From positions 169,963-201,962 of the forward strand of contig CBDDBN010000025.1 of assembly GCA_965225735.1 (NCBI GenBank): a stretch of 32,000 nucleotides of DNA. The letters run 5' to 3'. This DNA comes from Denitrobaculum sp. (lineage in GTDB: Bacteria; Pseudomonadota; Alphaproteobacteria; Kiloniellales; Kiloniellaceae). Shown piece after piece: positions 27,298-30,015 of this stretch (its first letter is position 1; each line of letters opens with the position of its first letter). Both the position numbers and the translations under genes were made by a program. A model generated the notes under the pieces. That model made no database searches. It saw nothing but the letters and a program-made list of their open reading frames with translations, and had not been told where the DNA came from.

Positions 27298-27492
27298 ATG
27301 GAAAGAGGCCGCGTTAAGTCATTTGGAGGCGGTCAAGGCACTATTGAACCTGATGAAACTGGGAAGCCGGATGTGTTTTTTCTGAGTACTGTTGTCGAGG
27401 GCTCCAAAACACCCGCTGTCGGCGCCGCTGTCGAATATAAACTTTATCAGAGTGGCGGCGAACCTGAAGCAAAGAGGGTGGTGATTATTTGA
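27298..27492 (+). CDS. 64-aa cold-shock-domain-like (OB-fold) protein with degenerate RNP motifs
   Basis: ATG at 27298 is preceded by GAGAGGAGAA. MERGRVKSFGGGQGTIEPDETGKPDVFFLSTVVEGSKTPAVGAAVEYKLYQSGGEPEAKRVVII aligns by eye to CspA (G.VK.F...G.G.I.PD..G.DVF...S......G..V.....G..P.A..V). It lies 34 nt downstream of the lipoprotein gene. Confidence 0.6.
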   Translation: MERGRVKSFGGGQGTIEPDETGKPDVFFLSTVVEGSKTPAVGAAVEYKLYQSGGEPEAKRVVII

Positions 27493-27653
27493 AGTCACTA
27501 AATGTATGACCAAAAACTATTGGGGAGCGTAGCGACCAACATTCCTTTCGTACATAGTAATTAGGCACGGATTTCTTGTTGCATTAAGAATCCAGTTTTA
27601 AAATCATGTTCGATAACCCGCGAAATTCCAGTGACACAGCACCCAAGTTTCGG

Positions 27654-27680
27654 CGCGAATTACAGAAACATAATGCTTAA
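27654..27680 (+). repeat. Left copy of a ~25-nt imperfect direct repeat flanking the IS (cgcgaattacagaaacataatgcttaa)
   Basis: It aligns with 29235-29259 at 23 matched positions with three 1-2 nt gaps. Confidence 0.6.
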
Positions 27681-27978
27681 TTATTCGGTCGGGCGAACTA
27701 CCTCTTTCTTTTAGAAATGACGATGAACTTGGCTGGAGAGTCAAGACATCGGGCGTTAAACCAGCAACCGATCACGCCCAAACAAGGACCCAATCCCGCT
27801 TGCTCGGTGACGATCTCATCGGACCGATCCAATTGAGCTATTGTGTCGTGTGTCTGGTCCGTGTGTCGGGGATATTGAAGCATCGGGGACATGGCCGTAA
27901 TCGCGGCTGGTCACGCTCCGAGCCTATAGTAGGGGTTCTGTGTTGAGCAGCCCCAGTAGGCCATGAAGGAGCGCGACC

Positions 27979-29007
27979 ATGGAGTATTATATCGGTTTGG
28001 ATGTGTCCCTGAAAGAAACCCATCTTTGTTTGGTCGATCAGGCAGGTAAGGTTCTTGGCCGGCGCCGGGAAGTGAGCCGTCCGGATCTTCTGGCTTCGGC
28101 GATCAGGTCTCTTGCGCCCGAGGTTCGGTTGGTTGTTCTGGAGACGGGTGGACAATCGAGTTGGCTGCAGCGCGAACTGAGCGCTTTGGGTGTGCCGGCG
28201 GTGATCGTCGATGCCCGACGCGCCAAAGCGGCCTTGAGTTGCCGGATGAACAAGAGCGATGCCAATGACGCGGAAGGCTTGGCGCAGTTGGCCCGCACCG
28301 GCTGGTACCGGGAAGTGGCCGCCAAGCGGCCGGAAGCGCGCCTGGCGCGGGCGTCTTTGCTGGCCCGTCAGCAACTGGCGAAGCAGCGGCGCGATCTGGA
28401 GAACTGCATCCGGGCGCTGTTGCGGGGTTTTGGTCTTCCTGTTGGGATGGTCAGCCGGCGCGGTTTCGAAGCGCGGGTGTGGGAGTTGCTGGGTAAGGAA
28501 ACTTTACTGGAAGAGGCCGTGGCGCCTCTGCTGCAGGCCCGCCGTGGCTTACTGGTTCAGATCGAGGTGCTGGAACGTGACATCAAGGCTCTGGCAGCGG
28601 CCTCTGCGGTCTGCACGCGCCTGATGAGCGTTCCCGGTGTGGGTCCTATGACGGCGCTGGCCTTTGTGAGCGCCATCGACGATCCGGACCGCTTTACACG
28701 CTCGAGCGCGGTGGGTGCCTATCTCGGCCTGACCCCTCGACGTCATCAATCGGGTGAAGTCGACTGGTCCGGCCGGATCTCCAAGCGGGGCGATGCGCTC
28801 GCGCGGCACATGCTCTATGAAGCGGCCAATGCCTTAATGGTCAGGACCAAGAAGTGGTCGGCCCCCAAGGCCTGGGCCTTGCGCAAGGCGGCCCGCATCG
28901 GCCCCAAGAAAGCTCGGGTGGCCCTGGCCCGCAAGCTTGCTGTGGTCCTGCACCGTATCTGGGTCGATGGCAGCGAATTCCGTTGGACGAAGGAGGAAAC
29001 CGCCTAA
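27979..29007 (+). CDS. IS110-family transposase (DEDD RuvC-like N-terminal domain plus Tnp_20 C-terminal domain)
   Basis: 342 aa. MEYYIGLDVSLKETHLCLVD, VVLETGG and NKSDANDAEGLAQL give the DEDD pattern. The C-terminal LMSVPGVGPMTALAFVSAIDDPDRF...YLGLTPRRHQSGEVDWSGRISKRGDALARHMLYEAA is the classic IS110 signature. AAGGAG is upstream. Confidence 0.95.
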   Translation: MEYYIGLDVSLKETHLCLVDQAGKVLGRRREVSRPDLLASAIRSLAPEVRLVVLETGGQSSWLQRELSALGVPAVIVDARRAKAALSCRMNKSDANDAEGLAQLARTGWYREVAAKRPEARLARASLLARQQLAKQRRDLENCIRALLRGFGLPVGMVSRRGFEARVWELLGKETLLEEAVAPLLQARRGLLVQIEVLERDIKALAAASAVCTRLMSVPGVGPMTALAFVSAIDDPDRFTRSSAVGAYLGLTPRRHQSGEVDWSGRISKRGDALARHMLYEAANALMVRTKKWSAPKAWALRKAARIGPKKARVALARKLAVVLHRIWVDGSEFRWTKEETA

Positions 29008-29176
29008 GGCACCAAATACACTAAGACCAGTTCCGTCCCCGCCGGGACGCGAGGCTCGGGCTCATCCCGCAAGTATTGTTGCGCCCCGAAAGGGACAAAC
29101 GCGTGGCAGGGACATTGGGAAGCCTGGACCTCTTGGAAGCCATCCTGCGGCGAGCCTCATGAAAGGCCCATCAGAC

Positions 29177-29195
29177 CGCGTAGACAACCATGATA
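29177..29195 (+). repeat. Internal third copy of the flank motif (cgcgtagacaaccatgata) in the IS 3' non-coding end
   Basis: It matches 29235-29254 (cgcgattagacaacataata) except for small indels and one substitution. It lies 170 nt after the transposase stop and 28 nt before the right subterminal IR. Confidence 0.55.
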
Positions 29196-29234
29196 CCGGC
29201 GGTGACGTACAAACCGGAGCTTGACCGAAACACT

Positions 29235-29259
29235 CGCGATTAGACAACATAATACTTAA
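29235..29259 (+). repeat. Right copy of the flanking imperfect direct repeat (cgcgattagacaacataatacttaa)
   Basis: See the left copy at 27654-27680. Confidence 0.6.
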
Positions 29260-29302
29260 CTCAGCGCTCCTGCTCAGGTCTCAAAAAAGATTCTTAAGGT
29301 TT

Positions 29303-30015
29303 CTAGCGGTGAACGCAACGCTCCGCGTCGGGCATGTGCGGCGGTAAGGCACGCTGTAGGACTCGGGCGGTGGCAACGACGTAATCAGCGTCCGGCTGTG
29401 ATATCAGAGACCCGATGTGAGATATGACGCGATCAGGGGGTTCGAGGTGACCCTCCAATAGAGTTCCTGCAGACCGGGTGTTCGCTCGAGCAAGCCAGGC
29501 AGCCATTCCAGGTATGAACTCAATGCCTAGGCCAGGACGACATCGGCGAAGGTCATCTGGTCCGCAACGCAAGAACCCGACCCCTGCGTCACGATGATCA
29601 CCTCGAAGCGCGGGCTGAACTTGGCAAAGCGCGCTTCGAGTTCGGCGGTTGCGATTTCGACACTGGGCCTAAAGGCGACTTGCATCACAGTCTCGGCGAA
29701 GGCAGCAACGACACCTGCGATCATGTCGGCCCACATGGCTTCCGTATCATTGGCGCCGTAAAGCCCGCCCCGCCGCGCGAGATAGCGGATCGTCGCGGAG
29801 GACTGACTGGGGTGATGGCCGTCCAGCTCCAGCAAGGGCATCTGGTCAAAGTGAGGTTTGCCGGATGCGCGCAGGTCCGCCGGTTCTGCCGCAGTGTCTA
29901 TGGGCAGATTGACGAAATCGACACCGGTGCCGGTCAGCGTTTCCGAAGTAACGCCGTGATCACGAAAAAAACCGAAGAAACCTTCGTTACCTAGAGTACG
30001 GGTGCCAAAAAGCAC
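29303..30015 (-). pseudogene. Glutathione S-transferase, disrupted by a frameshift
   Basis: ORF 29527-30015 carries GST-like N-terminal and central blocks (HFDQMPLLELDGHHPSQSSATIRYLARRGGLYG, ...CVADQMTFADVVLA) and then stops. The expected C-terminal block (LGIEFIPGMAAWLARANTRSA) continues in another frame in ORF 29303-29572. An in-frame TAG lies directly upstream of the GTG start. Confidence 0.55.

What the first reader, a model, noticed from the sequence alone, without database searches (positions are those of the whole stretch)
27654..29259. IS110/IS1111-type element with a motif present at both flanks and once inside its 3' non-coding end (candidate bridge/seekRNA guide)
Seen in sequence: an intact IS110 transposase gene sits between cgcgaattacagaaacataatgcttaa (27654-27680) and cgcgattagacaacataatacttaa (29235-29259). 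Just inside these lie 7-bp inverted repeats (27684-27690 and 29223-29229). A third copy, cgcgtagacaaccatgata (29177-29195), lies in the ~230-nt non-coding tail after the transposase gene. Established knowledge: IS110-family recombinases are guided by an element-encoded non-coding RNA whose loops match target and donor ends (bridge RNA, Durrant et al. 2024; seekRNA, Siddiquee et al. 2024). IS1111-type members have subterminal IRs and encode the RNA downstream of the gene. Inference: the internal copy may be the guide segment specifying this insertion site. The flank similarity is too diverged (5 mismatches or gaps) for a fresh target duplication.
Basis: partly seen in the sequence, partly recalled or inferred. 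Interest (0 to 1): 0.6.

Follow-up and report, generated by a model that had tools for sequence, protein, structure and literature searches.

The report
IS1111-type insertion sequence with bridge RNA

Summary
The three motif copies and the IS110-family gene are real. The boundaries and the reading of the motif needed correction.

- **Ends:** seven 97-100% identical copies in this genome place the element at window 27889-29248. That is about 1358 bp plus a duplicated AC core, not 27681-29234.
- **Right motif (29235-29259):** it is the right subterminal repeat, the IS terminus and the first bases of the target.
- **Left motif (27654-27680):** it lies 205 bp outside the IS. It is a decayed, unoccupied copy of the ~28-bp repeat that this IS targets.
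- **Internal motif (29177-29195):** it is the donor (right-end) guide of the RNA, not the target guide.
- **Target guides:** these sit at 29071-29079 and 29107-29115.

[quoted passage not shown] In that alignment 93.6% of cells are paired and 28 of 35 pairs show compensatory changes. Guides and flanks change together across eight lineage classes, so natural reprogramming is visible.

RNA expression and transposition were not testable here. Verdict: a new, unnamed member of a known kind, of modest interest.

The parts
27889..29248 (+). The insertion sequence, counted with both copies of the AC core (27889-27890 and 29247-29248). That is about 1358 bp of element plus one duplicated core.
   Evidence: There are seven copies at 97-100% identity in the same genome. 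Homology begins and ends here. Whole-element contigs of relatives are 1361-1370 bp.
27898..27905 (.). Left subterminal inverted repeat TAATCGCG, 9 nt in from the left end.
   Evidence: Read from the sequence. It is conserved as TAATCGCGGC in relatives at 61-76% identity.
29235..29242 (.). Right subterminal inverted repeat CGCGATTA, 6 nt in from the right end.
27979..29007 (+). DEDD transposase/recombinase of 342 aa, carrying the GLTPRRHQSG motif.
   Evidence: All 7 genomic copies are full-length.
29035..29206 (+). Predicted bridge RNA / long seekRNA. A closing helix (29039-29045 with 29196-29202) holds a target-binding arm and a donor-binding arm.
   Evidence: Covariance model R1 gives 173 bits here, the only hit in the window. 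The minimum-energy fold of the single sequence contains the same helices.
29071..29079 (+). Target guide A (AAGTATTGT), on the 5' side of the target loop. It is complementary to the top strand of the 9 nt to the right of the core (A-T/C-AATACTT, with a G.T wobble at +2).
   Evidence: L115 has the same guide and the flank ACAATACAT.
29107..29115 (+). Target guide B (CAGGGACAT), on the 3' side of the target loop. It is identical to the top strand of the left flank plus the core, so it would pair with the bottom strand.
   Evidence: Left flanks of the 7 copies read C-n-GGG then ACAT. It changes with the flank in relatives.
29139..29143 (+). Donor guide on the 5' side of the donor loop (GCCAT). 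It is complementary to the left end, ATGGC.
   Evidence: The distant clade has ACACCAT against ATGGTGT. L045 and L058 have GGG against ATGGGG.
29181..29188 (+). Donor guide on the 3' side of the donor loop (TAGACAAC). It is identical to the right end plus the core.
   Evidence: GACAAC and GAGAAC change together in the loop and in the terminus.
29221..29226 (+). Conserved TTGAC(C) box in the right end, a candidate -35 of a promoter formed at the circle junction.
   Evidence: It is conserved as CTTGAC in nearly all relatives. The function is inferred from ISEc11 (PMC11187229).
27861..27888 (.). Left half of the occupied target repeat, ending ...GAAGCATCGGGG.
   Evidence: When the two flanks are joined, the site has 5 mismatches to the 28-bp target consensus.
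29249..29264 (.). Right half of the occupied target repeat (ATAATACTTAACTCAG).
   Evidence: This is the only stretch that varies between otherwise identical copies. It matches unoccupied sites.
27654..27684 (.). It is not part of the IS.
   Evidence: It sits at the position homologous to a full-consensus repeat in the paralogous element L008. A sister variant lies at C30:404559. There is no RNA-model hit and no right-end homology here.

Best explanation
Window 27889-29248 is an intact, recently active IS1111-type insertion sequence of the IS110 family. Its 342-aa DEDD recombinase would work with an RNA transcribed from the 3' non-coding region (about 29035-29206).

**Predicted RNA fold.** A closing helix holds two arms, and each arm carries an internal loop.
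- **Target loop.** The 5' side (29071-29079) pairs with the top strand of the 9 nt to the right of an AC core. The 3' side (29107-29115) pairs with the bottom strand of the left flank plus the core.
- **Donor loop.** The 5' side (29139-29143) pairs with the left end of the IS.

**Predicted action.** The RNA would bring together the circularised IS junction (right end, AC, left end) and a ~28-bp REP-like genomic repeat with consensus GAGTTCCnGGGG-AC-AYAATACTTAAC. Strands would be exchanged at the AC core. The result is orientation-specific insertion with only the core repeated.

**Shown and inferred.**
- Shown by comparison: the ends, the fold, and the guide-target and guide-end matches with their co-variation.
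- Inferred from ISEc11 and IS621: transcription of the RNA, RNA-protein complex formation, a circular intermediate, and the chemistry of exchange.
For: **Ends.** Seven 97-100% identical copies share 27889-29248, and their flanks differ. All copies encode a full-length 342-aa protein at 97.7-100% identity to the window copy.

**Family.** PF01548 and PF02371 match. NF033542, 'IS110 family RNA-guided transposase', scores 250 bits. The protein is 342 aa with GL-P----SG. The subterminal repeat is 8 bp. The non-coding parts are 90 nt at the left end and 241 nt at the right. These fit the IS1111 criteria in PMC11187229 and PMC11208160.

**RNA.**
- The tail is homologous across relatives at 42-77% protein identity.
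- In that alignment 93.6% of cells are paired, 28 of 35 pairs change on both sides, and the covariation score is 0.330. Slid controls give at most 0.065, and 0 of 500 shuffles reach the observed values.
- The rival fold scores 0.175 and gives about half the bits in relatives outside the seed.
- The single-sequence minimum-energy fold contains the same helices.

**Guides.**
- Cognate guide-flank matches far exceed non-cognate ones. Guide A averages a 5.85 nt longest run against 2.96. Guide B averages 4.77 of 6 against 1.86.
- Only 1 of 20,000 random permutations of the 8 guide classes reached the observed score.
- A 76%-identical lineage has both guides and both flanks changed together.
- The top-strand match lies 5' of the bottom-strand match, as reported for IS1111 seekRNAs (PMC11187229).

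**Target.** The genome holds about 10 unoccupied copies of the same 28-bp repeat, often as inverted pairs.
Against: - There is no expression or biochemical evidence.
- No Rfam family matches.
- Folding the whole 255-nt tail alone is no better than shuffled sequence (z = -0.05).
- The pair counts come from an alignment fitted to the model, which leans towards it.
- Donor-guide co-variation rests on only about 4-5 independent changes.
- The exact crossover cannot be fixed from sequence. AC is the minimum shared between junctions, but ACAT is shared in 5 of 7 copies.
- Two copies (L003, L007) lack the AT after the core, and this is unexplained.
- No empty-site allele of any copy was found in the 20-30 related genomes searched.
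- ISEc11 transposes with a short RNA that lacks the 3' half (PMC11187229). The donor loop may therefore not be essential in this group.
Confidence: 0.85

Rival explanations
1. The IS spans 27681-29234, the motif at both flanks is the target, and the internal copy (29177-29195) is the guide that specifies this insertion site.
For: All three copies exist. IS110-family guides do match their targets (PMC11208160, PMC11187229).
Against: - All 7 copies include 29235-29248 and exclude 27681-27888.
- The internal motif matches the conserved terminus, not the variable flank. It changes with the terminus across clades.
- Other segments match the flanks.
Confidence: 0.03
2. The conserved tail acts only as DNA, as transposase-binding sites and a junction promoter, and not as an RNA. 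On this view the motif resemblance between tail and terminus is an old internal duplication with no guiding role.
For: - The subterminal repeats and the TTGAC box are DNA signals.
- No transcript evidence was obtained.
- The short ISEc11 seekRNA works without the 3' half (PMC11187229).
Against: - Compensatory base-pair changes occur in 28 of 35 pairs, including long-range helix S0.
- Complementarity to the flanks is strand-specific and changes with the target. DNA-binding sites would not produce this.
- The family is experimentally RNA-guided.
Confidence: 0.07
3. The left motif (27654-27680) is the leftover right end of an older, related IS inserted at the same kind of site. On this view it is not a plain unoccupied target repeat.
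For: - CGCGAATTACAGAA resembles the right terminus CGCGATTAGACA.
- Homology with the paralogous element L008 breaks just upstream of it.
- A more distant IS group ends in AATTACAGATC.
Against: - There is no further right-end or RNA homology upstream by blastn with word size 7 or by the covariance model.
- Only one IS110-family transposase type exists in the genome.
- The same GAATTACAGRA variant occurs at C30:404559 with no IS nearby.
- It aligns position for position with the target left half, GAATTCTGGGG, in L008.
Confidence: 0.1

Closest known systems
IS1111-group elements with seekRNA (ISEc11, ISKpn4, ISPa11, ISPst6; Siddiquee et al. 2024, PMC11187229)
   Same: - The transposase is 342 aa, with the GL-P----SG motif.
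- It has subterminal inverted repeats and a long non-coding region downstream of the gene.
- Insertion is site- and orientation-specific, with no real target duplication.
- The RNA segment complementary to the top strand lies 5' of the one complementary to the bottom strand, and the two overlap at the junction.
- Natural reprogramming is seen among relatives.
   Different: - The best plasmid-borne relatives are at most 52% identical, and the best metagenomic ones at most 77%. No ISfinder comparison was possible.
- The target is a different ~28-bp repeat.
- Here the 3' half of the long RNA shows a second loop that matches both IS ends. That paper left the role of the long form open.
IS621 bridge RNA (IS110 group; Durrant et al. 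2024, PMC11208160; Hiraizumi et al. 2024, PMC11208158)
   Same: - It uses a DEDD recombinase.
- One RNA carries two internal loops. One loop reads the target and the other reads the joined IS ends, each with one guide per strand.
- A 2-nt core is shared by donor and target.
- A candidate promoter forms at the circle junction.
   Different: - The RNA is encoded at the 3' end rather than in the left end.
- The strand order of the guides is reversed.
- The core is AC rather than CT.
- The subterminal repeats are long.
- The right target guide is 9 nt and does not appear to cover the core.
- A long-range helix closes both arms.
REP-targeting IS110/IS1111 elements (ISPpu9, ISPpu10, ISPa11; Tobes & Pareja 2006, cited in PMC11208160; PMC12288879)
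   Same: It inserts into a short repeated, partly palindromic extragenic sequence that is present many times in the host genome.
   Different: The repeat here has only about 17 recognisable copies. No RAYT (PF01797) gene was found in this 91%-complete assembly, so calling it a true REP is not established.

Membership tests
IS110 family, IS1111 group | DEDD (RuvC-like) N-terminal domain plus the Transposase_20 C-terminal domain | tested here: met
   PF01548 at 6e-16 and PF02371 at 4e-26. NF033542 scores 250.6 bits against a cut-off of 140.
IS110 family, IS1111 group | Transposase of 330-350 aa with a GL-P----S/TG motif (PMC11187229) | tested here: met
   The protein is 342 aa and GLTPRRHQSG is present in the translation.
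IS110 family, IS1111 group | Subterminal inverted repeats of 7-17 bp, a few bases in from each end | tested here: met
   TAATCGCG lies at 27898-27905 and CGCGATTA at 29235-29242, 9 and 6 nt from the ends. They are 10 bp long in close relatives.
IS110 family, IS1111 group | The longer non-coding region lies downstream of the transposase gene (right end longer than left end) | tested here: met
   There are 90 nt upstream and 241 nt downstream once the ends are corrected.
IS110 family, IS1111 group | Site- and orientation-specific insertion without a target duplication beyond the core | tested here: met
   All 7 copies sit in the same repeat, in the same orientation, and only AC (or ACAT) is repeated.
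IS110 family, IS1111 group | Circular intermediate with a junction promoter | not testable with these tools
   Only a conserved TTGAC box in the right end was seen.
Bridge RNA / seekRNA | Conserved structured RNA with internal loops in the non-coding end | tested here: met
   The model hits 41 loci. In that alignment 93.6% of cells are paired, 28 of 35 pairs are compensatory, and the fold beats a rival fold.
Bridge RNA / seekRNA | Two loop segments complementary to opposite strands of the target, changing with the target | tested here: met
   The identity assignment is the only one of 20,000 permutations to reach the observed score.
Bridge RNA / seekRNA | Loop segments matching the left and right IS ends (donor loop) | tested here: met
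   GCCAT pairs with ATGGC, and TAGACAAC matches the terminus. Both change in step in other clades, but few of those changes are independent.
Bridge RNA / seekRNA | The RNA is expressed and bound by the recombinase, and is needed for transposition | not testable with these tools
Bridge RNA / seekRNA | Match to a curated RNA family | tested here: not met
   An Rfam 15 scan of 27300-29600 found nothing relevant. No bridge RNA family matched this sequence.
REP/REPIN (as the nature of the target) | Short, repeated, often inverted-paired extragenic sequence | tested here: inconclusive
   There are about 10 unoccupied and 7 occupied copies, several as inverted pairs of about 70 bp. The copy number is low for a REP.
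REP/REPIN (as the nature of the target) | An associated RAYT (Y1 transposase) gene | tested here: not met
   There is no PF01797 hit in the own genome, which is 91% complete. A weak Y1_Tnp gene lies beside the same repeat on a metagenomic contig, L110.

The most novel reading that the evidence does not exclude
In this IS1111-type clade the 3' half of the 'long seekRNA' may be a genuine donor-binding loop that reads both IS ends. That would settle what the long form is for.

If so, several oddities could be footprints of RNA-guided recombination at left junctions, which mimic the target through left flank + ACAT. The oddities are:
- tandem duplications of 'left target half plus the first bases of the left end';
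- solo 26-64-bp left-end fragments beside target half-sites, seen in several genera.
Probability: 0.2. Interest if true: 0.55.

Novelty: new member of a known kind. Interest (0 to 1): 0.35.

Why it matters
- It gives a fully annotated natural example of an IS1111-type RNA-guided recombinase. The ends, the AC core, both target guides and both donor guides are mapped to the base.
- It comes with a series of relatives at 42-77% identity that show natural retargeting.
- It adds comparative evidence that IS1111-type RNAs carry a donor loop, a point the seekRNA work left open.
- For genome annotation, it shows that conserved target sequence is easily mistaken for IS ends in this family, and the reverse.
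- It does not reveal a new mechanism.

Tried and rejected
- **Empty-site alleles.** The left flanks of the window copy and of four other copies were searched in 20-30 related genomes. Only one partial flank homologue appeared, in G003, and it lacked the site. The ends were set instead from the 7-copy alignment and from unoccupied paralogous sites.
- **Rfam.** No relevant family matched.
- **Single-sequence fold of the whole tail.** It was not better than shuffled sequence.
- **Rival local-hairpin fold from RNAalifold on the close clade.** It was modelled and rejected.
Rejected, because its left arm is outside the IS.
- **The left motif as a remnant of an IS right end.** No supporting homology was found.
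- **RAYT gene.** A search to confirm that the target is a REP found none.
- **Other IS110-family transposases in the genome.** None were found.
- **A closer relative in a related genome.** G028/L095, at 76% DNA identity, is truncated after about 370 bp and has no tail.

Full report
**Observation.** The three motif copies are in the sequence as stated. The ORF at 27979-29007 encodes a 342-aa protein with the two IS110-family domains (PF01548 and PF02371). It passes NCBIfam NF033542, 'IS110 family RNA-guided transposase', at 250.6 bits against a cut-off of 140. The sequence facts are therefore confirmed.

**True ends.** The assembly holds seven copies at 97-100% identity, all with a full-length ORF.
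- Aligning the copies with their flanks shows that the left flanks become unalignable upstream of ...GGG|ACATGGCCGTAATCGCGG (window 27889).
- The next 11-15 bases (ATAATACTTAAYTCC) are similar in all copies. They are the only stretch that varies between otherwise identical copies: two copies lack AT, one reads ATATTT and one reads ATCGTT. That is the behaviour of conserved target, not of IS sequence.
- The element is therefore 27889-29248. The real subterminal repeats are TAATCGCG (27898-27905) and CGCGATTA (29235-29242).
- Several relatives occur as whole-element contigs of 1361-1370 bp, the same size.

**The target.** A scan of the genome for the right-half motif, and then for the 28-bp consensus, found about 10 unoccupied sites of the form GAGTTCCnGGGG-ACAT-AATACTTAAC.
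- Several of these lie in inverted pairs about 70 bp across.
- The left flanks of the seven copies supply the left half of this repeat, and the bases after GACAAC supply the right half.
- The window's left motif sits at the position homologous to a full-consensus repeat at the start of a 180-bp paralogous element 8 kb away (L008). A sister variant lies at C30:404559.
- The covariance model and a sensitive blastn both find no IS-tail homology there.
- The left motif is therefore a decayed, unoccupied target copy. Its likeness to the right motif comes mainly from the shared target half, ACATAATRCTTAA.
- No RAYT gene was found in the genome, so 'REP-like' is a description and not a classification.

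**The RNA.**
- The 3' tails of about 40 relatives from reference genomes (42-55% protein identity) and of nine metagenomic lineages (61-76%) are clearly homologous to the window's tail.
- RNAalifold on the distant set gave stems that flank two internal loops.
- A covariance model (R1) was built from the close clade with that architecture: closing helix S0, three-part basal stem T1, stem T2 and stem D1. It hit 41 loci, always downstream of the transposase gene, and hit the window only at 29035-29206.
- On that alignment 93.6% of cells pair, 28 of 35 pairs change on both sides, and the covariation score is 0.330. Slid controls give at most 0.065, and no shuffle in 500 reaches the observed values.
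- An alternative local-hairpin fold, treated identically, gave 0.175. It also gave roughly half the bit score in sequences outside the seed, for example 36 against 75 bits for L019.
- The single-sequence minimum-energy fold of 29035-29206 contains the same helices.
- Caveats: the alignment was fitted to the model, and folding the whole 255-nt tail alone is unremarkable.

**Guides.** Four unpaired segments sit in the two internal loops.
- **Guide A.** Between T1 and T2, the 5' side (29071-29079) is the reverse complement of the 9 nt to the right of the core.
- **Guide B.** The 3' side of the same loop (29107-29115) is identical to the left flank plus ACAT.
- **Co-variation with the target.** Both guides change with the flanks across eight guide classes. 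Examples are ACGTCGCTA, CTCTACAGC, CGTTTTTGG, CGGCCCGCG, GTGCACT and AYAATACTT.
- **Statistics.** Cognate matches far exceed non-cognate ones. Only 1 of 20,000 random permutations of the classes reached the observed score.
- **Order.** The top-strand match precedes the bottom-strand match, as reported for IS1111 seekRNAs (PMC11187229).
- **Donor loop.** In the second loop, GCCAT (29139-29143) complements the left end ATGGC. TAGACAAC (29181-29188) equals the right end plus the core. In the distant clade these become ACACCAT against ATGGTGT and AGAGAAC against AGAGAAC, and other lineages show GGG against ATGGGG.
It is therefore the donor guide.
- **Core.** The smallest sequence shared by left and right junctions across all lineages is AC, which I take as the core.

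**Mechanism.** By analogy with ISEc11 and IS621 (PMC11187229, PMC11208160), I infer the following steps:
1. The IS excises as a circle that joins ...TAGACA-AC-ATGGCC...
2. A conserved TTGAC box (29221-29226) may supply the -35 of a junction promoter.
3. The RNA-recombinase complex pairs the donor loop with that junction and the target loop with the repeat.
4. Strands are exchanged at AC.

**What remains open.**
- The exact crossover within ACAT is not fixed.
- It is unexplained why two copies lack the AT after the core.
- It is unknown whether the donor loop is required, since ISEc11 works with a short RNA (PMC11187229).
- No empty-site allele was found in related genomes.

**Novelty.** IS1111-group bridge RNAs encoded in the right end were predicted for 93% of catalogued members (PMC11208160) and shown experimentally for several (PMC11187229). 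This is an unnamed new member. The best plasmid relatives are at most 52% identical and the best metagenomic relatives at most 77%. It is not a new kind.

Noticed in passing
window 27668-27845; L008:1501-1679 (G000:C25:205668-205846): A non-coding element of about 180 bp is present twice on this contig at 75% identity. Each copy begins exactly at a copy of the IS target repeat. It has no Rfam match and its function is unknown.
   Followed up: partly
L006:~1470-1510; also L097, L109, L110, L116, L122 just upstream of the IS left end: Tandem duplications of the left target half recur directly before the left end in six independent lineages. In two of them (L006, L097) the repeated unit includes the first bases of the IS left end, for example GTTACGGGGACATGGC twice in L006. 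They could be recombination footprints or natural repeat arrays.
   Followed up: partly
G000:C18:47894-47958 (L009), G000:C23:22967-22992 (L010); L097 (G004), L099 (G012), L101 (G019): Solo fragments of the IS left end (26-64 bp, 89-97% identity) sit beside target half-sites. They occur in this genome and in three related genomes that lack the full IS.
   Followed up: partly
L110-L113 (metagenomic contigs), about 1789-1900: A 73%-identical relative is cut off right after guide A and joined to tandem copies of the target repeat. It lies next to a gene with a weak Y1_Tnp (RAYT-like) hit, which hints that the target is a REP in that organism.
   Followed up: no
L095 (G028:C200:33777-34146): A copy of a related IS at 76% DNA identity sits at the same kind of target (GAATTCCGGGG). 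It is truncated after the first ~370 bp of the element, which include the first 94 codons of the gene.
   Followed up: yes
L034:81-236 and 2391-2546: Two copies of the tail RNA lie 2.3 kb apart on one 2.9-kb contig. That means two IS copies of a distant relative in the same orientation, close together.
   Followed up: no
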